Below are positions 12,961 to 45,331 of a DNA stretch of 64,000 bases, piece after piece (the first letter of the stretch is position 1; every line of letters starts with the position of its first letter). Source of the DNA: Naegleria gruberi (lineage: Eukaryota). The stretch is from assembly GCA_000004985.1 (NCBI GenBank), contig GG738892.1; one strand, written 5' to 3'. The notes beneath the pieces were generated by a model. It saw only the letters and a program-made list of their open reading frames with translations. It was not told the origin of the DNA and searched no databases. Position numbers and translations under genes: made by a program.

Positions 12961-13358
12961 TTTTTTATTGTCATTTGACGTTTGTAATTTTAATGGAGAT
13001 TGAAGTTTTACTGCAGCAGAAAATTGTTAATGTAGATGATGAATATGATATGGTTGTTGCTGTTTTTTTGATAGGAAACGAAATTGATGTATTTTTAATA
13101 GTATTAATATGTAATAGTTTTATCCATTTTTGAACCATTTAAAAAAATATTGTAAAGATTATAATATTCAATAGATAATACTACAACTCAGTACTAATAA
13201 TACAAGGTTCATAATTCAAAACCTTACTCGCATTCAACAAGTTCAACCTCAGAGATGAAACTAAAAATACTTTTCTCTTTTCTGAGGTTGAACAGATGGA
13301 CAACTTTAATATCCAAGCAATTTCTTGAAGCCTATCGAAAAAGAAGCAGAGAGAAAAA

Positions 13359-24400: not shown

Positions 24401-25801
24401 TCTGAAGGATCGATAACTAATCTCCATTCGAATCTTGATTCTCCCTCGATACCTCCCTTGAATGAGCTTGTGGCCTCTATTGTTTCTCCTTCCATCACTG
24501 TACCAATAATGTCAAGAGAAGAACAGTATGGCTTTCCAGCTAATACTTCTCCAGTAGTATCCTCAAAAGAAATGAGTTTGTTGGTGTGTTGCTTGAAAAC
24601 AAGAGAAGCACCTAAAGTAGTTGAAATATCATCAAAGACAGCTATATAACAAGTACCAACAGCTCCATTATACCAAACAATTTCAATTTTGAAACTTGAT
24701 CCCTCAGATGGTACTTGATTGACATCAGCAGATATTACCTCGGATCTTCCTGATTCGTTAGCAAAGTAAAATGAATGTGGGCCAACAGGAACTAGTAAGG
24801 TAAGTTTTTCTTCTGCAACCACATCAAAAGAAGCCAAATGCTCATTCTTCTCAAATACAATCTTTGACCACTTTCCTTCTGGAACATCAATTTCTAAAAA
24901 TCCCATTCCTAATGCCTCAACTGAGTAATCTTGATTTGTATCTACCTTAAAAACAGGGAAGAATCTTACTTCTTCCTCTTCTACAGGATTTTGACAATCA
25001 AAACAATAGTTTAACAAATGGAATGGTGTTCCTTTTGAAATTTGCCTTTGAGCATCAAGAAGCCAATCTTTTGAAAAAGCTTTTAACTTTTCAAACTCTT
25101 CAAATTCTTCTTCATAAGGAATTAATAAACCTAGCAATACTGATTCTGAAATTGTTCCTCTATAATTTGCTGCATTTTCAAGAGTCTCATCGCTAAGCAG
25201 TTCTCTATTCAATGATCTCAATTTACTGAATAGAGCTATGGCTATCTCTTTGAACTTGTTAATTTCTACAATTGGGTTATCTGAGAGATCTAAAGAATCA
25301 AGCTCTTCGAATGATTTTACATTTTGAAAGTTCTTAATACGATTATTTGGAGCACTAAAAGCTCTTAATTTAGGAAGAGCAGGACCGTCCCATTCACTGA
25401 TCGAGTTGTTTCCAAGAATTAAGGATTCCAATTCCTTGAGATTTGGCATGGACATGAGAGAAGTAATCTTATTATGTGTCAAAAATAAATGTTTAAGAAC
25501 TGGCATATAAGACAAGAAGGATAAGTTCTCAATATTATTTGAACTCAAATCCAATACTCTCAACAATGGAAATTCAACTTGAATATTTAAAGTTTTTGGT
25601 AAATCTCCATTTCTGGCATACAAATATTCATATCCAAATAGTTCATTAAAATCAAAGGTTCCCAATTCTGTATTACTAATATTCAATTTCTAATTTGTTC
25701 AATCGTTAAAGCATCATAAAATTGTTTTCACTTACCTTTACAGTTTCCACTTTCTTTGGTTGAGAAGAAAGAGCCTTTTTCTTCATTGGAGATTCCGGCA
25801 T
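21403..25801 (-). CDS. AIR9-like protein: N-terminal SDS22-type leucine-rich repeats followed by about 9-11 tandem Ig-like A9 repeats
   Basis: Two exons: complement(25736..25801) encodes MPESPMKKKALSSQPKKVETVK. A 46-nt GTAAGT...TAG intron spans 25690-25735. Then complement(21403..25689). The ORF-track start at 25686 is a TTG. LRR block LDLSSNNIENLSFLSYMPVLKHLFLTHNKITSL. The repeated approx. 100-aa unit carries [FY]xGGhEGxSxxxW (YSGGFEGESRFEW, FTGGIEGECTFQW, YYGGFEGNSEFEF, YEGGTEGLTIINW, YYGGIEGSSMKRW, YYGGIEGKSIIQW). Confidence 0.65.
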
Positions 25802-26028
25802 CTTCTTAGATCCTATTAACGAAGAGAAGGTAAATAAACGTCTTGAGACTTGATGATAACAAACCTTGAGGTGCTATTGTTGGAGGCATTTTTTTATTTT
25901 AAAAATTGTATTTTGGTTTGGCGGGAGAAATACTGAAGTCATTTAAGATCTGTCTTAATTTGTCAACGAGAATCAAAAAGTACGAGATTGGTTGATAACA
26001 ATGTTTAATTATTCTCAATAATATTACT

Positions 26029-27425
26029 TTATTGCTTTTGGTTTGTTTGTGGTGGGTGTGCCATCTGTTGTGTAGCTTGTTTTTGCTGTTCTGCTACCAT
26101 CTTTACAAACTTTTCAAAGTAAAAAGTACTACCATTGTGAACCATAACTATGAAAATGTTAATATTTCAATAAAATCCAATAAAACATACCAATATAAAT
26201 AGCAACAAGACAGAATGCATGGAAATAAATATATCTAAACATGAAAATTACAGGTAAAACAGTTAAACTATGATAGAATAATTGGAATGCCATAAAAGCA
26301 AATAATCTGGTGGTTGCTGAGAATTTTTGTCCAAGCTCTATTCAAACATGTTTGTGAAATATCCTTAGAAAATACTTACTGTAAGACTTTGATTTTTTAT
26401 CCATTTCTGTAATCCATCTGAAACTTGTAATGACATGAGATCTTTCCTTCAAGATATTTCTATCAATATGTTCAGTTTTGATAAAATATGAAATTTGCCA
26501 GAATAAGAAGAAGAGAAGATGAGGAACTATTACTTCAAACCATGTAACTTCACAATTTTCTCTAATACAGACAGAATATTCAGGGAATTGTTCAGGATAC
26601 CATCTAATTGCAAATGAAATAAGTGGAGGGAATGTATGAATAAATGCAGAAGTTAACTTATCAAAATCATGGAAAACAAGTGAATTTCTCCTATTTAAAA
26701 TTACAATTAACAATCATCTCTTTAAACTTACCAAAAAACAATTGCCAATAAGATAGGTCCACAATTATTAGCAAATGTTAAAACAAACAAATGAGGACTA
26801 GTTGGGAAGAAGAATAAGAAGAACATTAATGCCAAATTTCCCATATAACAGAAATCAATCATAAAATACTTTTGAAATTCAATGATATCGTTCGGAATTG
26901 AATTACGTAATACTTACGTGAGCATGTTGAGAGTGGAAATCAATGAAACGATAAATCATCAAAGGAATCATCCACAAAATGTACCAAATAGGTAAATATT
27001 TTGGAGAATGTCCAAAAAGATAGGTTGTACTAACAAGAAGAAGAACACCAACAGTGAATGCAACTATAGAATTTTGGAAATTACAATCTCGGAATGTTGT
27101 ACTTACTCTTGTCACTAAATGAAACTGAAAAATTAGGAAGATTTTTCAAGCTAATATGTGATCAATTATTATTTAATTATTACTAATAAACATACATTTT
27201 ATATCTCTTTCTCAAGCTTGATGAAACATTTACAAGTGTTGATGAAGGTTTTGGAGTTGCTTGTTGTGGTCCTTGTTTAGGAGATGATGAAGTTGTTGTT
27301 GTTGTGTTATTATTATTTGTTGTTGTTGTTGTTGTTGGAGTTATTGTTGCTGTTGTTACAGGATCTTGTTCTTGCTTCTTTTCTTGTTTACTTTCCTTCT
27401 TCTTTTTAGTTTGTTGTTGTGACAT
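26029..27425 (-). CDS. Multi-exon polytopic membrane protein (about 5 exons, at least 6 TM helices), unknown family
   Basis: Exons reconstructed on the minus strand: 27425..approx. 27198 (MSQQQTKKKKESKQ...poly-Thr...LRKRYK), approx. 27128..26903, approx. 26870..26730, approx. 26690..26342, approx. 26325..26200, and 26029..approx. 26155. They are linked by 40-70 nt GTA(A/T)GT...AG introns. Boundaries are approximate. Hydrophobic segments include IVAFTVGVLLLVSTTYLF, LPIWYILWMIPLMIY, LALMFFLFFFPTS, VIVPHLLFFLFWQISYFI and LTVLPVIFMFRYIYFHAFCLVAIYIG. Confidence 0.35.
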
Positions 27426-27504
27426 TTTTTGAGGAGCAACTCCGTAGCAGAAATAAGGAAAGCAAGTGAAATGGATAAAATAGTTGTTGTTTTTATTGAT
27501 ATTC

Positions 27505-30500
27505 TTAAAAGAAGAATGTGGCTTGATTCAGCTCTTGGATGGATCTTAAAATATTATCAGAGTTAGTACCAATTTGACGAGCTAAATCTCTTTGTAAAAT
27601 TGTGTTAATGTTTGCATAATTCCAAATCAGTTGACCATCAATGATATTCTTCTTATAATTGTATTCAGTACGTTCGAGTGGCTTGTATAATCTGAAAGAT
27701 TTTGGATGTAACCCTGCTGCTTGTTCCAATTGTGTGTACATCTTTAACTGTAAGGCAAATAATCTTCTGTGAGTTACTTCGTTAATTGGAGCAACATAAC
27801 CAATAGCACCATCTACGCTTCCAAATAATATAAATTGGTGATTAGGATTAGTTTTTGTGATATCCTTTTTACCTGATTGTTTTGGTTTTTCATTTACATT
27901 ACCCAATCTAATGGTGTTATCGTCAGGTAATTCTCTTACTTTCATTCTTATAAGGCTGTTAATAAGGGTACCAATGTGGAAATCACAAACTGGGACCAAA
28001 TTTCTACCATCGTTACTTTCTTGATGCTGAGGCAGATAGGAGAAGATTTGAAGATTCTTACTAGTGTCAATAACTGCCAATCCAAGTAAATCATTATTCA
28101 CAAGGAATTCTGAAGAGACAACTTGAAGTGGTCTGTTATCTTTGGCAAGAAGAATTAATCTGTGACCCTTTTCCTTCCAACGTAAAAAGCTTACGCTCTT
28201 ATAGATATCACCAAACATGATAAAGTTTCTAACAGTATTTAAACTTGCAGTATAAAATTGAGTGTCATAGAAAGATGTAATATGCATTCTCTTTTCTTCC
28301 CAATCAAAGTAGTACGTATAAATACGATTACCAACACTACAAATAATATATCTGTCAACTTGTTCAAGAGTTGTAATTGGTCCTTTAACAGATGTTGAAG
28401 AAATTAAATTCAACTTATACTCATTTTCTCTTCCAAGAATTGGATCCAAATCAAATAATAAAAGTCTTCCTCTACATAATTCTCTTTCACTTTGTACATA
28501 GGCTGTTCCTACAGCAACTACAGAAACCAAGTCTTGCTTTCTGCTGTTCAATGGCTCTTCAAATGATATATCAGTATCGTCATTATATTCTTCCTTAGAC
28601 AAATAAACTACCTTTGCTGCCACAGCAGACTCATGAAGATCAAATTCAAACTTGTCCATTTCTTGCCAATTGTGTCCTGAAAATAATTTTACAGTGTGCT
28701 TTTGTTCGGCTGGAGGAGGGCATTTACCCTCAGGGAAAGGAATACTATCAGGTAAAATGGCCTTTACAGGAACAGATGTGAAAGCTAAACAAGTATTAGT
28801 ATCTTGATGGAATGTAATAACGTTAGGAGTACTCTTGAGCAAAATCTTTCTTTGTGGCCAGTAGGCGTTAAATTTAACATTAGCATTCAAACTTGAAATG
28901 TGTAACTTTGATTGTTTCTTATTATCTTGTTCTTTGTCTGTTAAATAAATAAAACCATGAGGACAGTTTTCGTGGTGATATGGTGTGAAGGTAGTAACAG
29001 GATCTCTACTTTGTGTTGGATGTACTCTGAGGTTAGAGTGTTCTGTAAATAACCAAAAAGGTTTTTCACCAGTTTTGAATAAACCTCCATAACCTCCAAT
29101 GTTTTTGAATGGAATAAGTTGGGATCTTCCTAGATCTGATTTTGGAAATAAATATTTAGATTTAAGATTGAGGGTAAATGTTTGACTCTTCTTGTCAATT
29201 TCAGATATTGGTAATAAATCGTCGTGTTGGAATTTAGAGAATCTTAGTCTTGTTAATCTGTTATCTTTGGATTTTGTTGTTCTATCTAAAAATGATCTAT
29301 AGATATGTACAGTATTATCGCTCAATACAGAAACAAGATATGGCATCTCGCTATCTGAGCCAATTCCTCTTAAAGCCATTTCTGTAACATATGGATACTT
29401 GACTTCAGATTGTGTAGTATTACTTGATTGTCCTTCATCAAACAGAGTTGTGTGGAATTGATAAAATTGAGAGAATGAGAATACACATGTCATATCTGGA
29501 ACAGATAAAATCTCGAAAGCACCATCAGTCCAATATACACAACATAAATATTTGCCTTCTTTTTCATTGATTCCAAAAAATTCAAACTCTGGATTGGTCT
29601 TGTACAGACATACTGCTGTTATCTTTCCATGATTAGATTCAATATCAAGTTGTTTGCTTGTCACTCTTCCGTTATCATGGGTGAGTAAAACTAAACTTCC
29701 ATCATAAAAATGAAGTAGGACATAAGGATCTAATATTATGGAAGATCTTATTTCCTTCTTGGAATGGTGAACTTGCTTTGGTTCAGATCCAATAAGCATT
29801 ACGCTTTTACGAGTTACTTGCACTATAGATTCTCTTATTTTACCAATATTCAAAGTTGTTTCATTTGTAACAAACATTGATTTTGACGTTACTTCAGCAA
29901 GGGTTGCCTTGGATTCAAATACTTTAGTCTTATCTTCTAAACTTAAAATTAAATACAAATCATGTTCAGTTTTTTGGGAAATAGTCCAAACTTGCTTGAC
30001 TAAAAATGGTAGAGTAGCTTCTGATTGAATATCAGGTTGTAGACTTCTATTCAAAACGGTCAAACAACCATGTCTACCAATACCAGAACAAGCAATAGCA
30101 GAAAGTTGATTATCGTTTGTTTTAGACTTGAATCCTGACATATCAAAAGAAGAAGTAACAGCTGCTGTCAAGTGTGATATTGGACCAATATTTGTAAAAA
30201 CATGTTTGATTTTGAGTTCTACCTTTGTTGTTTCTTTCTTAGAGACCTTGGAAAAGGATTCTATTACTGTTGGTTCTTCATCCTTTTCTAAAGCAGCAAA
30301 AAAGTCATCATCATCAGCTAACTTTCTCTTCTTTTTCTCTGGTTCAAAGTTTTCTCCAGCAGCAAAAACGGATGACATTTCTTCATCAGTATCCAAACTA
30401 CTAGTTTCCACCTCTACTTTTTCTTGATATTCATAAAGAACTGAATCACCAATCTTGGATCCAAGGAAAATAAGATTTCCTTTCAAAGTACACATGCAAG

Positions 30501-31626
30501 AGGCTGGTGTTGTGTTGGATGTCTTCTTGATGTTGATATTATTAATTCTACTTCCTCCAGACTCTAAATACATTGTATAAAGCTCACCATCCTTCAAAGA
30601 AACTAAAAGTTTATCCCTTGCTATGAAAGTGTATGCAACTGTATCAAAGAAGAGTGCAGGCCCATCAAAAGTATTAAAGTTAATTGATAAATTAGGATTC
30701 GAAACAGCAAAATCGTTGAAGGATAATCCATAAGTTGCACATTGATTAATATGAATGATAGAATTCATTCCAATAACCAATGCTCCACCAGCAACATCCT
30801 CTTGTAATGGAATCAATTTGTTACAGTCATGTGGTAATGATCCAACACTCCAAATCTTAGGATAATACTTTCTAAATAAATCGAATGATACAGCTGTCAC
30901 AGTTGATGTATTACTCTTAGCTGCAAGTCTACCACTCCAAGTTTGTTCATTCTCGTGCAAGAATAAAATTGTTGGTTCATTGTATCCATTCAAAAAGCAA
31001 TAGTCTTTCACATTTTTAATTCCTAGATCGTTTAAATCGATAATTACTTGTCTTTGCACTTCTGGTTGATGATGTTTTTTTTGATCTCCAACATTTTCAT
31101 TTGCTTCCTCTTGATCCCCAGAAAGAGCAAATAAAAAGTTATCCTCAGTTGAAAGTGATACATCCTCTCCAGATTGTCTGAATGGTAAAATTACTAATTT
31201 AGAGTCGCAAATAATTACTGTAGCAAATCTATTTTGTGGATCCAAAATAATTGGTTGATTGTGAAAGAATCTAGCTTTACCTTCTCTCAAAAAGTCATCT
31301 TCGAGATAATGCAAAGATAAAGTTTTAAGATCACTCCTCTTCTCATCAAACTCCACAACAGATACTTTTGCTTCATCTTCAAAGTTAATTAAAAGCATTT
31401 CCTTTTTCATACCCTGAAGACAAACAGCAATTATAGAATCAATTACTCCAAATAATTCAAAAACTTTTACAAGAACAATATTGGATGTATTCGGTTTGAT
31501 TAAATAAACCTCCATAATGTTGTTTTTAACAATGATCAGATTTTCATCATTAGCTGATGTAAATCGTGCCTTCAAACAGAATGACACAGCTGTTGGAGGA
31601 TGAAGCTGTTTGTAGCACGCGAACAT
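27505..31626 (-). CDS. CPSF1: Cleavage and polyadenylation specificity factor 160-kDa subunit (CPSF1/CPSF160; WD40-like beta-propeller + CPSF_A)
   Basis: Intronless 1373-aa ORF. The N-terminus MFACYKQLHPPTAVSFCLKARFTS aligns to my recollection of the metazoan CPSF1 start ([24 protein letters not shown]). Length and propeller-like periodicity fit the CPSF1/DDB1/SF3B3 family. Confidence 0.8.
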   Translation of the reverse strand: MFACYKQLHPPTAVSFCLKARFTSANDENLIIVKNNIMEVYLIKPNTSNIVLVKVFELFGVIDSIIAVCLQGMKKEMLLINFEDEAKVSVVEFDEKRSDLKTLSLHYLEDDFLREGKARFFHNQPIILDPQNRFATVIICDSKLVILPFRQSGEDVSLSTEDNFLFALSGDQEEANENVGDQKKHHQPEVQRQVIIDLNDLGIKNVKDYCFLNGYNEPTILFLHENEQTWSGRLAAKSNTSTVTAVSFDLFRKYYPKIWSVGSLPHDCNKLIPLQEDVAGGALVIGMNSIIHINQCATYGLSFNDFAVSNPNLSINFNTFDGPALFFDTVAYTFIARDKLLVSLKDGELYTMYLESGGSRINNINIKKTSNTTPASCMCTLKGNLIFLGSKIGDSVLYEYQEKVEVETSSLDTDEEMSSVFAAGENFEPEKKKRKLADDDDFFAALEKDEEPTVIESFSKVSKKETTKVELKIKHVFTNIGPISHLTAAVTSSFDMSGFKSKTNDNQLSAIACSGIGRHGCLTVLNRSLQPDIQSEATLPFLVKQVWTISQKTEHDLYLILSLEDKTKVFESKATLAEVTSKSMFVTNETTLNIGKIRESIVQVTRKSVMLIGSEPKQVHHSKKEIRSSIILDPYVLLHFYDGSLVLLTHDNGRVTSKQLDIESNHGKITAVCLYKTNPEFEFFGINEKEGKYLCCVYWTDGAFEILSVPDMTCVFSFSQFYQFHTTLFDEGQSSNTTQSEVKYPYVTEMALRGIGSDSEMPYLVSVLSDNTVHIYRSFLDRTTKSKDNRLTRLRFSKFQHDDLLPISEIDKKSQTFTLNLKSKYLFPKSDLGRSQLIPFKNIGGYGGLFKTGEKPFWLFTEHSNLRVHPTQSRDPVTTFTPYHHENCPHGFIYLTDKEQDNKKQSKLHISSLNANVKFNAYWPQRKILLKSTPNVITFHQDTNTCLAFTSVPVKAILPDSIPFPEGKCPPPAEQKHTVKLFSGHNWQEMDKFEFDLHESAVAAKVVYLSKEEYNDDTDISFEEPLNSRKQDLVSVVAVGTAYVQSERELCRGRLLLFDLDPILGRENEYKLNLISSTSVKGPITTLEQVDRYIICSVGNRIYTYYFDWEEKRMHITSFYDTQFYTASLNTVRNFIMFGDIYKSVSFLRWKEKGHRLILLAKDNRPLQVVSSEFLVNNDLLGLAVIDTSKNLQIFSYLPQHQESNDGRNLVPVCDFHIGTLINSLIRMKVRELPDDNTIRLGNVNEKPKQSGKKDITKTNPNHQFILFGSVDGAIGYVAPINEVTHRRLFALQLKMYTQLEQAAGLHPKSFRLYKPLERTEYNYKKNIIDGQLIWNYANINTILQRDLARQIGTNSDNILRSIQELNQATFFF

Positions 31627-31780
31627 TGTATTGGAAATTTTTTTAATTTATTTTTATTAAAATTTATTTGTTGTGATGAAGTTTTTCTGTGTTGAAAGGC
31701 TTGCATTGATTGTTTTCTTCTTGAAATAAATTTAGAAAACAACACATTCAACTATTTACATAGCAATAACAGAGTTTAAT

Positions 31781-34207
31781 TTAAAGTTCGGAATAGAACT
31801 TGTAGAGCAATTCTCTAACTTGGAAATAGGTTGGACTCAGAGAACCAAAAACTTGAATTTCTCCAGACTTTTTATCCTTTTGCAACATGACTTCATCATT
31901 GCAAACAAGAACACCTCCTTGTTGGAACTCAGCTGACAAGCCACTTTCTTTCAATAATTTGAAGAATTGATTCAACTTTAAATCACCAATGAGCATTGTT
32001 GGATGGCCCTTTGGTTTTGGATTTGGGTGAATGCAAGGAATATCGCTGCCTTCTTCAACTCTATAGATACCTTCAATATAAGCCATATCATAATTAGTAC
32101 CACTCTTAATATAATGAATTTGACTTAATAAATCTTGTTTCAGCTTGACTTTAAACATGTTGGTATCCATTGTCATGTCCATAACTTCTAGATCCATTGG
32201 AGTTTTGATTTGTTCTGAAATTTTCTTAGTTTCACAATAATCTGAAAGCTCAATAATTGATTCTTGAGATCCGTGAATTAAAATTAGTTTTCTAGGGTTA
32301 ATCTTTTGTAAAATATTCTTGATGTCTACAGGAGAGGATCTTCCTTCAAAATCTAAATAAGCTAATTTACAAAGAATTCTTACACTGACATTTTCAGATT
32401 CAATCTTAGATGGAGGTTCATAATAATCTTCTTCTTCATGAATAGTATTGTCAGCCATTATTTGTTCACTTTGATCTGCTTGAAGCAATCTAAGTTTGAA
32501 ATCTTCAGGGTCAACTGACTCACCATACTCATCTTTAGAAATACCTCTTTCAATACATGGAAACATCAAATATTGTGAATGATAACGCATATTCTCAGGT
32601 AGGTAAAGTCTGGCATGAGTTTGAGAATCATCATCAGCACCTCCTGTTAATTCTTCTCTGAATTGTTTCGATTTCTTCAAGTCCAAATCTTCATCGTCTT
32701 CATCTCTAACGTGAATAACTCTCTTATTTCTTTCTTCTTCTTCTCTTCTTTTCTTTTCAGCTTCTTGTTTCAATTGTTGTTCTTTTTCATATTTTTCCAA
32801 TTCTTCTCCTTTGAGAGCAACTCTACGATACAATGTTAAACTCATATTTTCGTCTAATCTTTCTGATTTTTTAGCTCTTAACTTGTTAATCAATTTTCTT
32901 GATAAAGAGTTAGGAGCAGACCTCTCAATAAACATAACCAAATTTCTTTGATCCTCACACCACTTTACAAATAGTTCTCTAGCATATCCGTAATCTAAAG
33001 TATTTGAAGAAGCCAAAACAACCATAGGTGTATGTTTTCCAGTAGTAGCTGTTTCTTCATCTTCGTCATTCATTTGATTTTCCATCATCATTCTCATTTG
33101 TTCTTTCTTTTGTAACTTGTCCATTAATTCTTCAACATTGTGACAAACACTAAAATATTGGAATTTAAATGGATTTTCACGTTTTTCATCGAATCCCTTC
33201 ATAATTTTATCACTCATCCATTCCAGTTGATGGGATGCAAATTCTATAGTTCTGTAAGCAACATTTGTCAATAAAATCAATTCAAAATTAGCCATTTGGG
33301 GATCTCTTTTCCATCTTTCTTCCAAAAGTAACATTAATTCGAAAACTCTACCAGCTGTCTCAATTGGTACAAGAACGTTTCCTCCACCGGTTAAGGTATC
33401 TGTTATTGATTTCATAATCTTGATTGCTGGTGCCTTATCTACCCCTCCAAGATCTGAGCTTGGAATAGGTTTCACATTGTATGCATCTGTGATTAAAAGA
33501 GCTGGTTTACCACCAAGTTCTCCTAATACAGACCCATTCAAATGTCTTTCTGTTTTGATGTTAAAATCTATGGCATATACAATTTCATCTGTCTCCTTTG
33601 TTAATTTCCAAATAGTACCACCTAGTGTGTGACCGGCTAAGAATGGACAAATGACTAGTTTCTCACCTTCCATTTCTGCAACAGATCCTGATGATCCAAC
33701 AACACCACCTTCACCTTCTTCTCCATTCTCATCGGTTTCTTCAATTTGTGTTATTATTGTTGTTTGTTGTGACAATGGATATCTTTGACTATATTTTAAT
33801 TGATGAATAGAATCAAAACAAAGATCTACATCATCCAAGTCAAATGTTTCAAAATCTTGATGTTGTCTTATATTTTGGTAAGCATCATAAAGATGCATTT
33901 GGCCCATTTTAACAATAGGTAATGTTGCAAATATTTTAGCCTTCTTCTTATTTTCCAAAATACCACATTTACCAACAAGATATGGTAAAGCACCACAGTG
34001 GTAAATATCACTTTGGGAAATTAAAATAGCATCAATTTTATCCCGATAATTGTTGATAATTTCTTGAATATGTGAATCCTTTGTATTAAAATTTTCATCC
34101 CATCCACAATCCAACAAAATATAATAATCATCAACAATTAATATCGAACAAACAGGTCCTTCATTTTGTGATCCAACAAGAGGAACAAATTGAATCGAAC
34201 TGCTCAT
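31781..34207 (-). CDS. CPSF2: Cleavage and polyadenylation specificity factor 100-kDa subunit (CPSF2/CPSF100; metallo-beta-lactamase / beta-CASP / RMMBL)
   Basis: Intronless 808-aa ORF. MSSSIQFVPLVGSQNEGPVCSILIVDDYYILLDCGWDE matches the CPSF2 N-terminus (…LLDCGWDE block, as recalled). An acidic insert and C-terminal CPSF100_C-like region are present. Confidence 0.8.
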   Translation of the reverse strand: MSSSIQFVPLVGSQNEGPVCSILIVDDYYILLDCGWDENFNTKDSHIQEIINNYRDKIDAILISQSDIYHCGALPYLVGKCGILENKKKAKIFATLPIVKMGQMHLYDAYQNIRQHQDFETFDLDDVDLCFDSIHQLKYSQRYPLSQQTTIITQIEETDENGEEGEGGVVGSSGSVAEMEGEKLVICPFLAGHTLGGTIWKLTKETDEIVYAIDFNIKTERHLNGSVLGELGGKPALLITDAYNVKPIPSSDLGGVDKAPAIKIMKSITDTLTGGGNVLVPIETAGRVFELMLLLEERWKRDPQMANFELILLTNVAYRTIEFASHQLEWMSDKIMKGFDEKRENPFKFQYFSVCHNVEELMDKLQKKEQMRMMMENQMNDEDEETATTGKHTPMVVLASSNTLDYGYARELFVKWCEDQRNLVMFIERSAPNSLSRKLINKLRAKKSERLDENMSLTLYRRVALKGEELEKYEKEQQLKQEAEKKRREEEERNKRVIHVRDEDDEDLDLKKSKQFREELTGGADDDSQTHARLYLPENMRYHSQYLMFPCIERGISKDEYGESVDPEDFKLRLLQADQSEQIMADNTIHEEEDYYEPPSKIESENVSVRILCKLAYLDFEGRSSPVDIKNILQKINPRKLILIHGSQESIIELSDYCETKKISEQIKTPMDLEVMDMTMDTNMFKVKLKQDLLSQIHYIKSGTNYDMAYIEGIYRVEEGSDIPCIHPNPKPKGHPTMLIGDLKLNQFFKLLKESGLSAEFQQGGVLVCNDEVMLQKDKKSGEIQVFGSLSPTYFQVRELLYKFYSEL

Positions 34208-34396
34208 TTTTTTTAAATTTGTATTTTAATATTTTATTAATCATGGAAATCAGAGCACTTTAAAACAATTTCAAGGAGGAACCTGTTGTCTACAGTTCTG
34301 TCTTGTTTCTTCTAGAGCAACAACAAGATAAAACCAGACTTCCTAACCCCATCTTCAAAAAACAAATTAATTTTTAATTTTTAATATTTTTAAAAA
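34208..34396. promoter_or_regulatory. 189-bp bidirectional promoter region shared by CPSF2 (minus) and CstF-77 (plus)
   Basis: Start codons at 34207 (minus) and 34397 (plus) face away from each other. The spacer is AT-rich and otherwise featureless. Inferred from gene arrangement only. Confidence 0.4.
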
Positions 34397-36749
34397 ATGT
34401 CCAGAGACAGGTATGCTGATCAAGATGATGACTATGAACAATCATCGGGTGGCAAAAACGACAAGATACAAAGTGCTGAAGCAAGAATCGAACTTAATAA
34501 GTATGACACAGAAGCTTGGACCGTAAGTAACAACAATCTAAAACAAATTTTCTAACATGTCATCATTAGATTTTGTTGTCAGAAGTACAAGAAATGAGCA
34601 TCATCCAAGCAAGACCATACTATGAACGATTTTTTGAAATATATCCAGTAGCTGTAAGTAATGATATTAGTGATTAATATTAACCTTCCATCAGGCAAGA
34701 TATTGGAAAATATATGCTGAACATGAATTAAAAGCAAAGAACCATACTCTAGCTGAGGAAATATTTAAAAAGGCATTGGATGCTTGCCCTAACTTTGAAT
34801 TGTGGAGATTTTATTTGGATTATATTAGGGAACATAAAAGAAATGATGTGGATACAATTCGTAAAGCCTTCGATATTTGCAAAGAAAAGGTTGGGCTTGA
34901 TATTTCAAGCTCAACTCTATGGATTGACAACATTAAATTCATAAAAGATCTTAAAGCAACTGATCAAAATGATATTCAAAACCAAATCAATCTTTTGAGA
35001 AGTCTCTATCAAGAAGCTATTCAAATTCCTATGCATGATATCGAAAAGATTTGGAAAGATTATGAAATTTTTGAAAATGAAGTCAACCCAACCAATGGGA
35101 AATCAACTCTTCAAGAATTTGCTCCAAAGTTCAAATTGGCTCTCAATAAGTATAAGGAAAAGAAAAATATCAGAGAAAATATGGGTGGAGTAGGAGGTTT
35201 ATTATTAAATATGTTGGCGACACCACCAACAAACTCTGAGAAGGAAAGATCACAAAAACAAATCTGGAAGGATTTAATAGAACTTGAAAAGAGAAATTCA
35301 CAAAGACTAACAGCTGATGAACTCAAAAGAAGAGTTCTTTTTGTTTATAGTCAATGCTTCCTCTGTTTTAGACATCATCCTGATATTTGGTATGATGCTG
35401 CTAATTATTTGATTTCTATTCAGTGTCACGATGAAGCAACAATAGTTTTTCAACGTGGATGTAACGCATTATTACCTGTTCCAAAATCATTGGATGCCAA
35501 TCAATCACAAGAGGGAAGTATTTTACTCCATCTTGCATTTTCAGAATATTTGGAATCAAGAAAGCTCTTTGACGAAGCAGCTAAAGTTTTCAAAACTCTT
35601 ATCACATCAAAACATGACCCTCTAGTTTTTATTCAATATATCAGATTTATGAGACGTACCAAAGGAACAGAAGGAGCTAGAGAAGCATTTATTGAAGTTA
35701 AAAAATCTCCAAAATGTACATACCATGTGTGGGTTGCATCAGCTCTTCTTGAATATACTACTAACAATCAACCAGAGACTGCAAGAAAATTTTTCAAACT
35801 AGGTCAGAATCAACCATTCGGAAAAGAACCAGGTTTTATTCTTGAATACTTAAAATTCCTAGACCATCTAAATGATAAGAATAACTCTAGAGTTCTTTTT
35901 GAAACAATTCTTAATGAATTACCAAAAGAACAATCCTCTGAAATATGGAATAGATTTTTACAATTTGAATACTCAATAGGCGATTTGAATTCGATAGAAA
36001 AGGTTGAACAAAGAAAACTTGCAGCCTTTTCAGAGAATGCTGAAAATAATACACCTTCTAATAGTGGTTTCGAAAATACAGTCAACGCTACCAACAGCCT
36101 TATAAATCTCATCAATAGAAGCAAGTTTTTAGATTTATGGCCTTGTACACCTAGTGAAATGGAGTTACTCAATTTGAAAGCACAAGAAAGCGAGAAAGTG
36201 CCAACAGAAGACGATATCCATATCAAATATTCTAAATCATTTTATCGTGTTGATTACACAAAGCAAATCATGTTTACAAACACTAGACAACAAAATCAAG
36301 GCTCAGTAGATAAACTCAATAGTAATCGTACAGCACCTCCAACAGTTTCTCTCCCTCCAGAATTCAACAAATTTAGACAATACCTTAACCAAAAGAGACT
36401 TTTCCTTCCGGATTTTAAGCAAATGTGTGAATTCAAAGTTATTCCAAACCATGTCTCACAATCTAATTCATCCCTTCCCCTAGTAACAGTACATGATGAG
36501 CAAGTAATTCCTCATACAGTACTTCAGATTTTAAGGAGAATGCCTCAACAACATTTTGCTGTTATTCCTCCAGATTATGTTATTAATGCATTGATGACAA
36601 CTCCACTTCCACCCCCACCTGAATCAGATCTTAAAAGAGGTAGAAATGAATATGAAAATGTTGATTATGACCAAGAGTATGATGATGAAGGTCCAGCAGA
36701 TAGAGCCTATGATGATATTTACACAAAGAGAAGAAAGCAAAGGAAATAA
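34397..36749 (+). CDS. CSTF3: Cleavage stimulation factor 77-kDa subunit (CstF-77 / CSTF3 / Suf / RNA14 family; HAT-repeat protein)
   Basis: Three exons: join(34397..34522, 34570..34653, 34695..36749). Introns are 47 and 41 nt (GTAAGT...TTAG / ...TCAG). Exon-1/2 peptide ...KYDTEAWT|ILLSEVQ... parallels metazoan ...KYDLDAWSILIREAQ. Later blocks HHPDIWYDAANYL, VFIQYIRFMRRTKG, DKNNSRVLFETIL, EIWNRFLQFEYSIGDL and FLDLWPCTPSEME match conserved CstF-77 segments as I remember them. Confidence 0.8.
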
Positions 36750-36957
36750 ATTCTTCTTTTTAATTAAGAATCTTTATATGAAGCACCTGATTTGAACAAA
36801 CGACCCCGTAACAGCTTCAAACGTAATCTTCCATTTCCAATTCGATCACTTCCTCAACACCTTGCTCGCATTTCAATAAGGAAGCCAAAGATAGAAACAC
36901 TTCATTGGGCCGACCAGAGAAATCTTTTACCAACAATCCACCCCACAGAATAAAAAA

Positions 36958-38973
36958 ATGAAGAACACACAACTGATATTTGGTCTCTCTGCACTCCTAT
37001 GTTTTATTCTCCTCAATCAATTGTTTGTTTTCATTAAGGCTGATGTGTATATGCACAATCCTAGAGGCTCAAATGATAGGTAGGTAACATTGTTGTGAAA
37101 ACAATGTTTTATTAAAATCTTAATAATAATAGAAATTGCGAGTTCCATGCTAACAGAAATAATGCAAATAGATTGTTCGACAGTCAAAATAATGCTGCAG
37201 GTGGTGTAAGTATTGAAAATTGGAAGATAACCATAGATTTATGGATTTTATTGTTGTTGGACTATATTGTTGTAATTTTAAAACAAACAGTATGCTTGCC
37301 CAAGAATGATCGGAGGTCCAGAAGTAGTTACACCAAGAATGTAAGTTTTTATTATTGTTGAATTGTAAATATTAACTTTATTAAGGTACTATTATGTAGG
37401 AAGTGAATTACCTATTGAATGGACCTCACAACACTCATGTGGTTTCAGAAATACTTATTGTAACGTTGTTATTCAATACATGTGTAATGATACAGCTCCA
37501 AATCTCAGAGATGGTACTCCTGAGAATGAAAAGGATGCTGCCACTGACACTATTTCAGAAGCCACCAATAACAATCCAAGATATGGATTGCACGAACCAA
37601 TGGAATATTACATGAAATGTAGAACAAGAAGAAGAAACTCTGGTCTCTATATTGCTGATCAAAGACAAGAAAATTGGGGAAGACTTTTGGAAAATAGCCC
37701 TGCTGTAGAAACAAGACAAAATCCAAACGGAAATAGACACGGTTGGGAATGTCCTGAAGAAAGAGATTATTATCCTTATTGGCATCCAACTCCTTGGAAA
37801 GATATTGCCATCTTTACTTTCAATACATCCATGTGTCAATGGTATCAAGAAAATTCTGAAAATGTTCGTGGAAGAGGAGAATGCTTACAAGAAAGTGGAG
37901 CACCATCTCCTTTCAATAATGAAAAGAGTTGCATTTCTGGAGGTCATAATTGGCATGTGAGACCAGCTCATGGTGTTGATCCACCAGAATGTATAAGTGC
38001 TGATATTATCAATGTTAGAGATAACCATTTGGGTAATACTTACAATGGTCAATTGGTAAATTACAAGTGGTATATTCCAAATGATGTTCATGAAAATTGT
38101 GTTGTGAGAATTAGATATAATATTACAACTGGTGATTATCATCCATTCGAAACTGATTCCACTTTCAATTATCCAAAGTCACCTCTTAAACAAGATCCAT
38201 TTGAAAACTTTGAATATCCTTCATGGTTATCATTGGCTGTTAACACAAATCAATATGGTAGAACATTCCAAGATAGAAGTTATGTTTTCTCAATTAAGGA
38301 AAGACCATCAACTATTCCTGCTTGGGCAAAGATTTACAATTTGAATGTGAGAGGAAAGAGAGGTAACATTGTTCAAACATTCCCTTCCACTGAATATGAC
38401 TTTGTTCCAAATTTCTTGGAAGCCAGAGGAGGTGATTTTATTCATATTCAATGGACTGGTTCTGATTACAATCCACAAAGAAATCCAAATGATGCTGAAG
38501 GTGCTCCAAATACTGGTGACAGAAGCAATTTGGTACAATCAGATAATTCTGGTTTCAATTATCCAAGAAATTATACCAGAGTTACAATGTTCTTAAAAGA
38601 TGATGGTACTCCAGATCTTGATTTTATCACTAGATTGGCTTTCATTGATCAACCAATTCAAAACACTTCTGAATGTATGGATTGGAAGTCATTGTTGGAA
38701 AAGAATGGTGGTAATAAGAATAAGGCTGAACAAGATTGCAACAATTGTGCCAAGCTCAACAATGCTCCAAATGGTCCATATTTTGATGGTGGACTTCATG
38801 AATTGAAGGCAAACGGTATGTTTGCTTACATGTCAACCAGAAACAACAATTTCTCAAACAGAAGTCACAAGGGTTATTTGATTGTTACAGGTGCCAGATT
38901 TAATAATTCTGACAAGTTAAAGATGTCCATGACTTTCATTGGTTTGATTTTCATGATTATCTTGATGCTTTAA
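36958..38973 (+). CDS. Secreted Cys/Trp-rich glycoprotein with C-terminal hydrophobic (GPI-signal-like) tail; possibly DD3-3-family-like
   Basis: Signal peptide exon MKNTQLIFGLSALLCFILLNQLFVFIKADVYMHNPRGSNDR (36958..approx. 37080). Three short introns follow (approx. 37081-37140, approx. 37223-37290, approx. 37352-37399). The large final exon is 37400..38973 (ORF-track 37480..38973). It ends in a hydrophobic C-terminus MSMTFIGLIFMIILML preceded by small residues. The family assignment is a weak recollection only. Confidence 0.5.
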
Positions 38974-44809: not shown

Positions 44810-45331
44810 ATGGAACAACATCAAATGTTGCAGAATTTGTTGAAGGAGAAGAAGAATCTCTCATCAACAACAGCACACGCCTTGAATTCATATAGAAAAG
44901 TATTATATGTTGGAAATTTATCACAACAAGTCACTAGAGATGTATTATACAATTTATTTATTCCATTCGGAGAAGTATTGGAAGTAACAGTGCCTGTTAA
45001 TCAAGTCAACAAGGAGGAAAAGGGATTTTCAGGTGCAAATACTAAACATCGTGGATATGCTTTTGTAGAATTTGAACTTCCAGAGGATGCCACAGATGCT
45101 CTAGAGAATTTAAATAATGGTGAATTATTTGGAAGAATTATAACAGTTAATTATTCAAAAGCTACAAATCTTTCCAGAGAAGCCTTTTCTGATCTCAATG
45201 TTCCACTGTGGAGTTTGAATGAATCATCTGAATCAAATAATAATAATACTGAATCATCGAGTGATAGCAATGAACCTAATGTTGCAGTTTTGGAAACAGA
45301 ACCATCTTTAAAAAAGACTAAACTTTCATAA
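44810..45331 (+). CDS. Single-RRM RNA-binding protein (RRM resembling that of PPIE/cyclophilin-33; no cyclophilin domain)
   Basis: 173 aa. RNP-2-like LYVGNL and RNP-1-like HRGYAFVEF. ...EDATDALENLNNGELFGRIITVNYSKA parallels the PPIE RRM (…[21 protein letters not shown]). Acidic/Ser-rich C-terminus. Confidence 0.55.
   Translation: MEQHQMLQNLLKEKKNLSSTTAHALNSYRKVLYVGNLSQQVTRDVLYNLFIPFGEVLEVTVPVNQVNKEEKGFSGANTKHRGYAFVEFELPEDATDALENLNNGELFGRIITVNYSKATNLSREAFSDLNVPLWSLNESSESNNNNTESSSDSNEPNVAVLETEPSLKKTKLS

What the first reader, a model, noticed from the sequence alone, without database searches (positions are those of the whole stretch)
27505..36749. Three genes of the pre-mRNA 3'-end processing machinery (CPSF160, CPSF100, CstF-77) are physically clustered within 9.2 kb
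CPSF1 (27505-31626, minus), CPSF2 (31781-34207, minus) and CSTF3 (34397-36749, plus) are recognisable from conserved N-terminal and internal blocks. Examples are MFACYKQLHPPTAVSF, LLDCGWDE, and HAT-repeat blocks HHPDIWYDAANYL and EIWNRFLQFEYSIGDL. In eukaryotes, subunits of one complex are usually scattered across the genome. Here CPSF2 is tandemly upstream of CPSF1 with a 154-bp spacer and shares a 189-bp head-to-head promoter with CstF-77. This layout suggests coordinated, possibly stoichiometric, expression of the cleavage/polyadenylation core. A eukaryotic functional gene cluster of this kind is unusual and to my knowledge not described.
Basis: partly seen in the sequence, partly recalled or inferred. 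Interest (0 to 1): 0.8.

Follow-up and report, generated by a model that had tools for sequence, protein, structure and literature searches.

The report
Naegleria polyadenylation-factor gene trio
Three neighbouring Naegleria gruberi genes do encode three interacting scaffold subunits of the mRNA cleavage/polyadenylation machinery, and the arrangement is kept across Naegleria (the core pair also in Willaertia), which makes it a tidy but lineage-restricted example of the known tendency of complex-subunit genes to sit together.

Summary
The window is Naegleria gruberi. The three genes are exact matches to public proteins EFC40480.1, EFC40481.1 and EFC40411.1. Sequence tests identify them as CPSF160/CPSF1, CPSF100/CPSF2 and CstF-77/CSTF3, not DDB1, SF3B3, CPSF73, INTS9/11 or PRP39.

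The layout CstF77<->CPSF2->CPSF1 recurs in N. fowleri, N. lovaniensis and an uncultured relative assembled from two metagenomes, so mis-assembly is excluded. Willaertia magna keeps only the head-to-head CstF77/CPSF2 pair. Acrasis kona and about 20 other eukaryotic loci show no adjacency.

By chance, about 1e-5 such trios are expected per genome for this complex. Each gene has its own AAUAAA or AUUAAA signal, so this is not an operon. The shared intergenic region has no detectable conserved motif, and equally short spacers occur between unrelated genes nearby. Co-expression is untested.

In Naegleria the conservation does not exceed the surrounding synteny. In Willaertia an unrelated neighbouring pair is also retained. 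Neutral retention therefore remains a serious rival to selection for co-regulation.

Verdict: a real, undescribed, lineage-specific micro-cluster. It is a new member of a known kind, of moderate interest.

The parts
27505..31626 (-). CPSF160/CPSF1 gene, single exon, 1373 aa (EFC40480.1 / XP_002673224.1)
   Evidence: ORF and exact public match. Pfam finds Beta-prop_RSE1_1st, Beta-prop_RSE1_2nd and CPSF_A (7.6e-72). PDB phmmer gives human CPSF1 532 bits, against DDB1 92 and SF3B3 85.
27492..27497 (-). AATAAA poly(A) signal of CPSF1, 7 nt after its stop codon
   Evidence: Read from the sequence. AAUAAA is the N. gruberi poly(A) signal and the median 3'UTR is 39 nt (PMC11529991). Use of this site is inferred, not shown.
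31627..31780 (-). 154-bp tandem spacer between the CPSF2 stop and the CPSF1 ATG. It holds ATTAAA at 31775-31780 (directly after the stop) and three AATAAA copies at 31647-31668 (20-40 nt upstream of the CPSF1 ATG).
   Evidence: The homologous spacers are 79 bp (N. lovaniensis), 71 bp (N. fowleri) and 49 bp (uncultured relative).
31781..34207 (-). CPSF100/CPSF2 gene, single exon, 808 aa (EFC40481.1)
   Evidence: Pfam finds Lactamase_B_6, Beta-Casp, RMMBL and CPSF100_C. PDB phmmer gives human CPSF2 456 bits, against INTS11 86, CPSF3 83 and INTS9 23. The alignment is collinear with human residues 1-780 and shows a degenerate metal motif.
34208..34396 (.). 189-bp head-to-head intergenic region between the CPSF2 and CstF-77 start codons (putative bidirectional promoter region), 25% G+C, with A-runs directly before both ATGs
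   Evidence: The arrangement is conserved in 5 taxa, with regions of 153-235 bp, but the sequence is not alignable and no k-mer is shared above shuffles. Promoter activity is inferred.
34397..34522 (+). CstF-77 exon 1 (42 codons)
   Evidence: The spliced product equals EFC40411.1.
34523..34569 (+). CstF-77 intron 1, 47 nt, GTAAGT...TAG
34570..34653 (+). CstF-77 exon 2 (28 codons)
34654..34694 (+). CstF-77 intron 2, 41 nt, GTAAGT...CAG
34695..36749 (+). CstF-77 exon 3 (684 codons plus stop). The whole protein is 754 aa.
   Evidence: Pfam Suf E 3.5e-133 over profile positions 1-531 of 532. PDB phmmer gives human CSTF3 342 bits, against PRP39 54.
36745..36750 (+). AATAAA overlapping the CstF-77 stop codon (AAA-TAA-A), a 'dual-use' stop and poly(A) signal
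   Evidence: The same overlap occurs in N. lovaniensis, N. fowleri, the uncultured relative and Willaertia. Dual-use stops in N. gruberi are described in PMC11529991.

Best explanation
This is a real, lineage-specific micro-cluster in Naegleria gruberi. It consists of three housekeeping genes: CPSF160/CPSF1, CPSF100/CPSF2 and CstF-77/CSTF3. Each product is the non-catalytic scaffold subunit of a different module of the cleavage/polyadenylation machinery (mPSF, mCF and CstF). In the human complex, CPSF100 and CstF-77 both dock onto the CPSF160-WDR33 platform.

The core is a divergent CstF-77<->CPSF100 pair separated by 150-235 bp. That pair dates at least to the Naegleria-Willaertia ancestor. 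CPSF160 sits 49-154 bp downstream of CPSF100 throughout Naegleria.

Each gene is predicted to make its own short-UTR monocistronic mRNA, ended at its own AAUAAA or AUUAAA. The most likely functional consequence is inferred, not shown. The shared nucleosome-free promoter region, and the very close tandem spacing, would correlate transcription of the three scaffold subunits. That would limit stoichiometric imbalance, and this benefit together with the tiny spacers would have kept the genes together.
For: Identity: exact matches to N. gruberi proteins on a 342-kb scaffold, Pfam architectures, and PDB phmmer scores 4-6 times higher for CPSF1, CPSF2 and CSTF3 than for any paralogous family.

CPSF100 is collinear with human CPSF2. 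It has the degenerate metal motif and a conserved YxMFP..E..I..DEYGE...PEDF block.

Physical partnership: human CPSF1 is co-deposited with CPSF2 in entry 6URG and with CSTF3 in 6URO. PMC9512404 states that the CPSF160-WDR33 scaffold binds CPSF100 and the CstF77 dimer.

Non-randomness: 1.4e-5 runs of three and 0.015 adjacent pairs are expected per genome.

Conservation: the trio is present in N. lovaniensis, N. fowleri and an uncultured relative seen in two metagenomes. The pair is present in Willaertia.

Rearrangements: breakpoints abut the cluster but do not split it in Naegleria. Three different genes follow CPSF1: DUF2838 in N. gruberi, F-box/Ras in N. fowleri and N. lovaniensis, and RCC1 in the uncultured relative. 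In Willaertia the pair is inverted relative to AIR9-DUF2838 yet still head-to-head.

Separate poly(A) signals exist for each gene in every species.

Literature: conserved divergent pairs with short spacers tend to be functionally related (PMC2871058).
Against: - No expression data were available, so co-expression and bidirectional promoter activity are untested.
- The head-to-head intergenic regions are not alignable and share no k-mers above shuffled controls.
- Within Naegleria the whole CstF-77 side (secreted protein, V-ATPase E, PDH-E1beta-like, rhomboid, RRM, BRCT/FHA) is also collinear. The trio's conservation there therefore does not exceed the background.
- In Willaertia the unrelated AIR9-DUF2838 pair is also retained, so some neutral retention occurs at that distance.
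- CPSF160 is not next to CPSF100 in Willaertia.
- The cluster is absent in Acrasis kona and other eukaryotes, so it is not required for the machinery.
- Short spacers are generic in this window.
Confidence: 0.5

Rival explanations
1. Neutral accident. Random rearrangements happened to bring the three genes together in the Naegleria/Willaertia lineage. They have stayed adjacent only because the spacers (49-235 bp) offer almost no place for a viable breakpoint and divergence time is limited. On this view there is no selected co-regulation.
For: - Intergenic distance is the strongest predictor of linkage conservation under a neutral model (PMC2258174).
- No conserved sequence was found in the shared intergenic region.
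- Flanking unrelated genes are equally collinear among Naegleria species, and AIR9-DUF2838 is also kept in Willaertia.
- CPSF160 has separated in Willaertia (or was never joined), and the cluster is absent in Acrasis and elsewhere.
- The look-elsewhere effect matters. With hundreds of complexes and many genomes scanned, an expectation of 1e-5 per complex per genome becomes roughly 0.004-0.01 per genome. This figure is my estimate.
Against: - Two independent chance juxtapositions are needed, and all three genes belong to one 16-polypeptide machinery.
- The three products are specifically the mutually docking scaffold subunits.
- Several rearrangement breakpoints fall immediately beside the cluster without splitting it, although equally short spacers exist inside it.
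Confidence: 0.42
2. Operon-like unit. CPSF100 and CPSF160 are co-transcribed as one polycistronic RNA, as in the related Euglenozoa or in nematode operons, and this enforces equal dosage.
For: The two genes are on the same strand with very short spacers (49-154 bp). Naegleria belongs to Discoba, like the polycistronic kinetoplastids (background knowledge). In the uncultured relative the only AATAAA lies 15 nt before the CPSF160 ATG, so the transcription units must at least overlap.
Against: - Every species has a canonical AAUAAA or AUUAAA at or just after the CPSF100 stop, or in the spacer.
- Direct RNA sequencing of N. gruberi shows ordinary AAUAAA-directed 3' ends with a median 3'UTR of 39 nt (PMC11529991).
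- To my knowledge no spliced-leader trans-splicing is known in Naegleria.
- Equally short tandem spacers separate unrelated genes, for example CPSF160 to the DUF2838-like gene at about 77 bp.
Confidence: 0.04
3. Artefact. The adjacency is a mis-assembly, or one ORF belongs to a paralogous family (DDB1/SF3B3, CPSF73/INTS9/INTS11, PRP39/CRNKL1).
For: None was found. The Pfam CPSF_A and RSE1 propeller models alone do not discriminate CPSF1 from DDB1 or SF3B3.
Against: The same order appears in the N. gruberi scaffold, the N. lovaniensis and N. fowleri genome assemblies, a Logan read-set assembly, and JGI and ENA metagenome contigs. The score gaps to paralogues are large: 532 against 92 bits, 456 against 86 bits, and 342 against 54 bits.
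Confidence: 0.01

Closest known systems
Human/yeast cleavage and polyadenylation machinery (CPSF160/Cft1, CPSF100/Cft2, CstF-77/Rna14)
   Same: The three Naegleria proteins are full-length orthologues with the same domain architectures. N. gruberi uses AAUAAA with a UGUA upstream element, as metazoans do (PMC11529991).
   Different: In human, yeast and Arabidopsis the three genes are unlinked (background knowledge, not tested here). In about 20 other eukaryotic CPSF2 or CstF77 loci examined here, no partner gene is adjacent.
Conserved divergent gene pairs with short shared intergenic regions (e.g. Hsp60/Hsp10, histone H2A/H2B, ribosomal L13/S16)
   Same: A head-to-head pair under 250 bp apart that encodes functionally linked proteins and is conserved across genera. 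PMC2871058 shows that such conserved divergent pairs are enriched for related function.
   Different: This pair is conserved only within Naegleria and Willaertia. No shared promoter element was detected, and co-expression is not demonstrated.
Clustering of genes for subunits of stable complexes / co-expressed neighbours in yeast (dosage-balance and noise-synchronisation ideas)
   Same: Adjacent, non-homologous genes encode subunits of one stable complex. The proposed benefit is correlated expression (PMC6785257 and papers listed).
   Different: A run of three subunits is rarer than the usual pairs. There is no expression or fitness evidence here.
Polycistronic transcription units of Euglenozoa and nematode operons
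   Same: Same-strand genes with very short spacers in a discoban genome.
   Different: Each gene here has its own poly(A) signal, and the third gene is on the opposite strand. To my knowledge no trans-splicing is known in Naegleria. Kinetoplastid units are not functionally themed.
Fungal/plant metabolic gene clusters (GAL, DAL, secondary metabolism)
   Same: A physically linked set of non-homologous genes serving one process.
   Different: Those clusters encode conditionally expressed pathway enzymes under a dedicated regulator. These are constitutive, essential scaffold proteins with no linked regulator (neighbours are unrelated).

Membership tests
CPSF160 / CPSF1 / Cft1 | Three beta-propellers plus a C-terminal CPSF_A region in one ~1400-aa chain | tested here: met
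   Pfam finds Beta-prop_RSE1_1st (residues 14-413), Beta-prop_RSE1_2nd (543-715) and CPSF_A (977-1338).
CPSF160 / CPSF1 / Cft1 | Closer to CPSF1 than to the paralogous DDB1 and SF3B3/Rse1 families | tested here: met
   PDB phmmer gives human CPSF1 532 bits (E 1.6e-158) and yeast Cft1 158 bits, against DDB1 92 and SF3B3 85. The closest database relatives are all annotated CPSF1.
CPSF160 / CPSF1 / Cft1 | Forms the WDR33/CPSF30 scaffold that reads AAUAAA | not testable with these tools
   Needs biochemistry. N. gruberi does use AAUAAA (PMC11529991).
CPSF100 / CPSF2 / Cft2 | Metallo-beta-lactamase, beta-CASP and RMMBL domains plus the CPSF100-specific C-terminal domain | tested here: met
   Pfam finds Lactamase_B_6 (2.5e-48), Beta-Casp (2.2e-19), RMMBL (1e-7) and CPSF100_C (5.4e-17).
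CPSF100 / CPSF2 / Cft2 | Closer to CPSF2 than to CPSF73, INTS11 or INTS9 | tested here: met
   Human CPSF2 scores 456 bits, against INTS11 86, CPSF3 83 and INTS9 23.
CPSF100 / CPSF2 / Cft2 | Inactive nuclease: the HxHxDH zinc motif is degenerate | tested here: met
   The alignment shows Naegleria 'ILISQSDIYHCGALPY' opposite human CPSF2 'VLLSHPDPLHLGALPY'. Neither has HxHxDH. The motif definition comes from established knowledge of beta-CASP nucleases.
CPSF100 / CPSF2 / Cft2 | Conserved segment that docks on CPSF160-WDR33 (the mPSF-interaction motif of human CPSF100) | tested here: inconclusive
   Naegleria 'YLMFPCIERGISKDEYGESVDPEDF' aligns with human '[25 protein letters not shown]'. That this block is the docking motif is recalled from Zhang et al. 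2019/2020 and was not verified here. PMC9512404 confirms only that CPSF100 binds the scaffold.
CstF-77 / CSTF3 / Rna14 / Su(f) | Full-length Suf/HAT-repeat domain | tested here: met
   Pfam Suf covers profile positions 1-531 of 532, E 3.5e-133, on the spliced protein.
CstF-77 / CSTF3 / Rna14 / Su(f) | Closer to CstF-77 than to other HAT proteins (PRP39, CRNKL1/Clf1, Rrp5, SART3) | tested here: met
   Human CSTF3 scores 342 bits and Rna14 100 bits, against PRP39 54 and CRNKL1 about 40.
Co-regulated functional gene cluster / bidirectional promoter pair | Physical adjacency of functionally linked, non-homologous genes beyond the chance expectation | tested here: met
   1.4e-5 trios and 0.015 pairs are expected per genome for a 16-gene set among 15,727 genes. 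The gene number is from the N. gruberi genome paper (from memory). The 16 polypeptides are from PMC8887130 (abstract).
Co-regulated functional gene cluster / bidirectional promoter pair | Conservation of the arrangement beyond background synteny | tested here: inconclusive
   The trio is kept in 3 further Naegleria-clade lineages and the pair in Willaertia, despite flank rearrangements. However, neighbouring unrelated genes are also collinear within Naegleria, and AIR9-DUF2838 is also kept in Willaertia. No genome-wide baseline was available.
Co-regulated functional gene cluster / bidirectional promoter pair | Shared conserved regulatory element in the intergenic region | tested here: not met
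   The MAFFT alignment shows only the A-runs before the ATGs. No 7- or 8-mers are shared by the four lineages, and shared 6-mers are no more frequent than in shuffles. The test is weak at this divergence and AT content.
Co-regulated functional gene cluster / bidirectional promoter pair | Correlated expression of the members | not testable with these tools
   There is no expression data tool. No supplementary tables are held for PMC11529991, and no paper mentions the locus tags.
Operon / polycistronic unit | Genes lack individual 3'-end signals and are made from one primary transcript | tested here: not met
   Each gene has AATAAA or ATTAAA at or shortly after its stop in every species examined. 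Actual transcripts were not examined.

The most novel reading that the evidence does not exclude
The layout could be a self-sensing circuit for the 3'-end machinery. The CPSF100 poly(A) site lies only 15-150 nt upstream of the CPSF160 start codon. In N. gruberi the signal next to the stop is the weaker AUUAAA variant, and in the uncultured relative the only AAUAAA is 15 nt before the ATG. When cleavage/polyadenylation activity drops, polymerases would therefore read through from CPSF100 into CPSF160. The result would be either read-through or dicistronic RNA, or interference with the CPSF160 promoter. Output of the machinery's own scaffold subunits would then be coupled to its activity. This is analogous in logic to CstF-77 autoregulation by an intronic poly(A) site in animals.
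Probability: 0.06. Interest if true: 0.7.

Novelty: new member of a known kind. Interest (0 to 1): 0.33.

Why it matters
If the cluster is maintained by selection, it would be a clean natural example outside yeast and animals. Genes for the three mutually docking scaffold subunits of an essential RNA-processing machine would be physically linked, probably for balanced expression, in a free-living and pathogenic amoeba lineage (N. fowleri included) that lacks genetic tools. It also gives a small, well-defined locus for testing bidirectional promoters and overlapping transcription units in the very compact Naegleria genome.

If it is neutral, it illustrates how tiny spacers freeze chance adjacencies. 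Either way it does not change the understanding of 3'-end processing. The machinery works with unlinked genes everywhere else.

Tried and rejected
1. Sigma-70 promoter and terminator scan of the shared region. It is irrelevant for a eukaryote and found nothing above shuffles.
2. Alignment and shared k-mer search of the head-to-head intergenic regions of 4-5 taxa. No conserved motif was found.
3. Search for further cleavage/polyadenylation genes in the 64-kb window by scanning all 29 ORFs of at least 150 aa against Pfam. None was found.
   - The RRM ORF at 44810-45331 is PPIE/Cyp33-like, not CstF-64 or PABPN1.
   - The weak nucleotidyltransferase hits (window 51471-52577 and Willaertia L002:14503-16734) have no PDB relatives and were dropped.
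4. Locating Willaertia CPSF160. It was not returned by the CPSF1 search at E<=1e-60, and there is no tblastn trace within 10 kb of CPSF100. Its position is unknown, so I could not decide whether the trio or only the pair is ancestral.
5. Metagenome scan with a CPSF2 alignment. It gave 18 loci, all at or below 52% identity. None had CstF-77 or CPSF1 adjacent, so they serve only as negative controls.
6. More distant relatives: L004, L005 and L027, and Acrasis kona L026. None shows adjacency. L026 has only 1.3 kb upstream of CstF-77, but that stretch is occupied by another same-strand gene.
7. Rfam, tRNA and repeat scans of 26-38 kb. No hidden RNA gene or flanking repeat that would suggest a mobile unit was found.
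8. Literature and supplementary-table searches for this cluster or for expression data on these locus tags. Nothing was found.
9. Structure prediction was not run, because sequence evidence for family membership was already decisive.

Full report
**Source and observation**

The three proteins are exact matches to Naegleria gruberi entries on a 342,059-bp scaffold:
- EFC40480.1, annotated 'CPSF A subunit'
- EFC40481.1, called 'CPSF subunit 2' in UniRef
- EFC40411.1, annotated only 'predicted protein'

The window is about 32% G+C and densely packed with mostly intron-poor genes.

The third gene needs one correction. 34397-36749 is not one ORF. It has three exons (34397-34522, 34570-34653, 34695-36749) separated by 47-nt and 41-nt GTAAGT...AG introns. 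The spliced 754-aa product equals the public model. It covers the whole Pfam Suf profile (positions 1-531 of 532, E 3.5e-133), whereas the longest ORF alone covers only positions 81-531. The 154-bp and 189-bp spacers are as stated.

**Gene identities**

| ORF | Pfam domains | Best PDB match | Nearest paralogues |
|---|---|---|---|
| ORF1 | Two RSE1/DDB1/CPSF1 propellers plus CPSF_A (not discriminating) | Human CPSF1, 532 bits | DDB1 92, SF3B3 85 |
| ORF2 | Lactamase_B_6, Beta-CASP, RMMBL, CPSF100_C | Human CPSF2, 456 bits | INTS11 86, CPSF73 83, INTS9 23 |
| Spliced CstF-77 | Suf/HAT | Human CSTF3, 342 bits | PRP39 54 |

ORF2 aligns collinearly with human CPSF2 residues 1-780. Like the human protein, it lacks the HxHxDH zinc motif. 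It also keeps the block YxMFP..E..I..DEYGE...PEDF. From memory of Zhang et al., I take this to be the segment that docks on CPSF160-WDR33.

**Why these three are a meaningful set**

In the solved human complexes, CPSF1 is co-deposited with CPSF2 (6URG) and with CSTF3 (6URO). PMC9512404 states that the CPSF160-WDR33 scaffold binds the CPSF100 subunit of the cleavage module, and that the CstF77 dimer contacts the same scaffold. The trio therefore consists of the architectural, non-catalytic subunit of each of three modules (mPSF, mCF and CstF). CPSF160 is the hub.

**Surroundings**

All 29 ORFs of at least 150 aa in the window were scanned against Pfam. None is another 3'-end factor. The neighbours are:
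- an AIR9/LRR protein and a DUF2838-like gene on the CPSF160 side
- a secreted protein of unknown family, V-ATPase subunit E, a transketolase-fold (PDH-E1beta-like) protein, a rhomboid, a PPIE-like RRM protein and a BRCT protein on the CstF-77 side

No Rfam family, tRNA or notable repeat lies in 26-38 kb.

**Is the adjacency real, and how old is it?**

In the layouts below, S is CstF-77, C2 is CPSF100 and C1 is CPSF160.

| Organism or sample | Layout |
|---|---|
| N. lovaniensis (locus tags C9374_000124/125/126) | S(-) C2(+) C1(+) |
| N. fowleri (genome assembly and an independent Logan read-set assembly) | S(-) C2(+) C1(+) |
| Uncultured relative (JGI metagenome 11.4-kb contig) | S(-) C2(+) C1(+) |
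| Willaertia magna (ABK040_005389/005390) | S(-) C2(+) only |

A 97.6%-identical ENA contig from a different metagenome shows the same head-to-head pair in the uncultured relative. That organism's CPSF2 is 73% identical to N. gruberi's. This is less than the 78% between N. gruberi and N. lovaniensis and more than the 70% for Willaertia. Mis-assembly is therefore excluded.

In Willaertia, CPSF160 is not within 10 kb of the pair. Relative to the conserved AIR9-DUF2838 neighbours, the pair is inverted. I could not locate Willaertia CPSF160, so I cannot say whether the trio or only the pair is ancestral.

The following loci show no adjacency:
- the Acrasis kona CstF-77 locus
- three further loci from more distant relatives
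- all 18 metagenomic CPSF2 loci

The cluster is therefore specific to the Naegleria/Willaertia lineage.

**Chance and selection**

Take about 15,727 genes (genome paper, from memory) and the 16 polypeptides of the reconstituted machinery (PMC8887130, abstract). Random order then predicts 1.4e-5 runs of three and 0.015 adjacent pairs per genome. Allowing for hundreds of complexes gives my rough estimate of 0.004-0.01 per genome for any comparable trio. That is unlikely, but not impossible in a multi-genome scan.

Conservation adds only moderate weight.
- Within Naegleria the whole CstF-77 flank is collinear too.
- In Willaertia the unrelated AIR9-DUF2838 pair has also survived.
- In favour of constraint, three different genes follow CPSF160 in three Naegleria-clade lineages (DUF2838, F-box/Ras, RCC1). 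The Willaertia pair was inverted as a unit. Repeated breakpoints therefore abut the cluster without splitting the pair.
- Against this, Poyatos and Hurst (PMC2258174) show that short intergenic distance is by itself the best neutral predictor of retained linkage.

**How it probably works**

Each gene carries its own poly(A) signal.
- CstF-77 has AATAAA fused to its stop codon (AAA-TAA-A) in all five taxa.
- CPSF160 has AATAAA 7 nt after its stop in N. gruberi.
- CPSF100 has TAATAAA in N. fowleri and N. lovaniensis.
- In N. gruberi, CPSF100 has ATTAAA directly after the stop, plus three AATAAA copies 20-40 nt before the CPSF160 ATG.
- In the uncultured relative, CPSF100 has a single AATAAA 15 nt before the CPSF160 ATG.

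N. gruberi uses AAUAAA and has a median 3'UTR of 39 nt (PMC11529991). This predicts three monocistronic mRNAs with partly overlapping transcription units, not an operon.

Any co-regulation would have to come from the shared promoter region of 150-235 bp and from proximity. I found no conserved element there. Spacers of 44-150 bp also separate unrelated genes in this window. Co-expression is therefore an inference from the general behaviour of conserved divergent pairs (PMC2871058) and of neighbouring genes (PMC6785257). It is not a result.

**Verdict**

The cluster is real and conserved, and as far as I could find it is undescribed.

It belongs to a known kind: adjacent or divergent genes for subunits of one complex. 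It is lineage-restricted, and the claimed stoichiometric co-expression is untested. I put selection for co-regulation at about 0.5 and neutral retention at about 0.4. Operon-like co-transcription and artefact are both unlikely.

Interest is moderate, about 0.33. The most novel reading not excluded is a read-through-based self-sensing circuit between CPSF100 and CPSF160, at about 6% probability.

Noticed in passing
window 36745-36750; L001 ~7460, L024 ~7373, L003 ~152, L002 ~7129 (CstF-77 3' ends): The CstF-77 stop codon is embedded in AATAAA (AAA-TAA-A) in N. gruberi, N. lovaniensis, N. fowleri, the uncultured relative and Willaertia. A gene for a poly(A)-site factor thus has a conserved 'dual-use' stop and poly(A) signal. 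CPSF100 of N. fowleri and N. lovaniensis (TAATAAA) and CPSF160 of the uncultured relative (TAAATAAA) do the same.
   Followed up: partly
L003 5140-5188 (uncultured Naegleria relative): Only 49 bp separate the CPSF100 stop from the CPSF160 ATG. The only AATAAA is 15 nt before that ATG. The CPSF100 3' end and the CPSF160 5' end must therefore overlap or nearly coincide.
   Followed up: partly
window 21403-27425 (-) and L002 934-6902 (-): The unrelated AIR9/LRR gene and a DUF2838-like gene are adjacent in the same orientation in both N. gruberi and Willaertia. They abut the cluster in both, but next to CPSF160 in N. gruberi and next to CstF-77 in Willaertia. This implies an inversion of the cluster relative to this pair.
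   Followed up: partly
L001 12561-16737 and 916-2757 (N. lovaniensis annotation): The public N. lovaniensis CPSF160 model is 1275 aa, against 1373-1400 aa in relatives. tblastn shows overlapping frame-shifted segments around 13091-13516. A 428-aa model fuses rhomboid and RRM domains that are separate genes in N. fowleri. These are probably gene-model errors.
   Followed up: no
window 34397-36749: N. gruberi CstF-77 (EFC40411.1, NAEGRDRAFT_71625) is still annotated only as 'predicted protein', although it matches the Suf profile at E 3.5e-133.
   Followed up: yes
L002 14503-16734 (-) and window 51471-52577 (-): Both have weak nucleotidyltransferase-domain hits: NTP_transf_2 at E 4.5e-4 for the Willaertia gene two positions downstream of CPSF100, and Polbeta at E 2.4e-4 for a 368-aa N. 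gruberi ORF 15 kb from the cluster. Neither has a PDB relative. Any link to RNA 3'-end modification is unsupported.
   Followed up: partly
window 44810-45331 (+): A 173-aa single-RRM ORF best matches the RRM of the spliceosomal cyclophilin PPIE/Cyp33 (E 8e-21), but no cyclophilin domain is in the ORF.
   Followed up: partly
window 36959-38973 (+): The gene just downstream of CstF-77 starts about 210 bp after it with a signal-peptide-like exon (MKNTQLIFGLSALLCFILL...) and has several short introns. Its 497-aa main ORF has no Pfam family. It is conserved in N. lovaniensis and N. fowleri, and probably in the uncultured relative.
   Followed up: no
window 53639-60694 (+): A 2351-aa ORF combines UPF0669 (C6orf120-like), bacterial pre-peptidase PPC and mannose-6-phosphate-receptor/ATG27-like domains. 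This is an unusual architecture.
   Followed up: no
L003 (JGI 3300002220) and L028 (ENA ERZ27315067): Contigs from two unrelated metagenome projects are 97.6% identical over 3 kb. They represent an uncultured heterolobosean that branches between Willaertia and the N. gruberi/N. fowleri group, judged by CPSF2 identity.
   Followed up: partly
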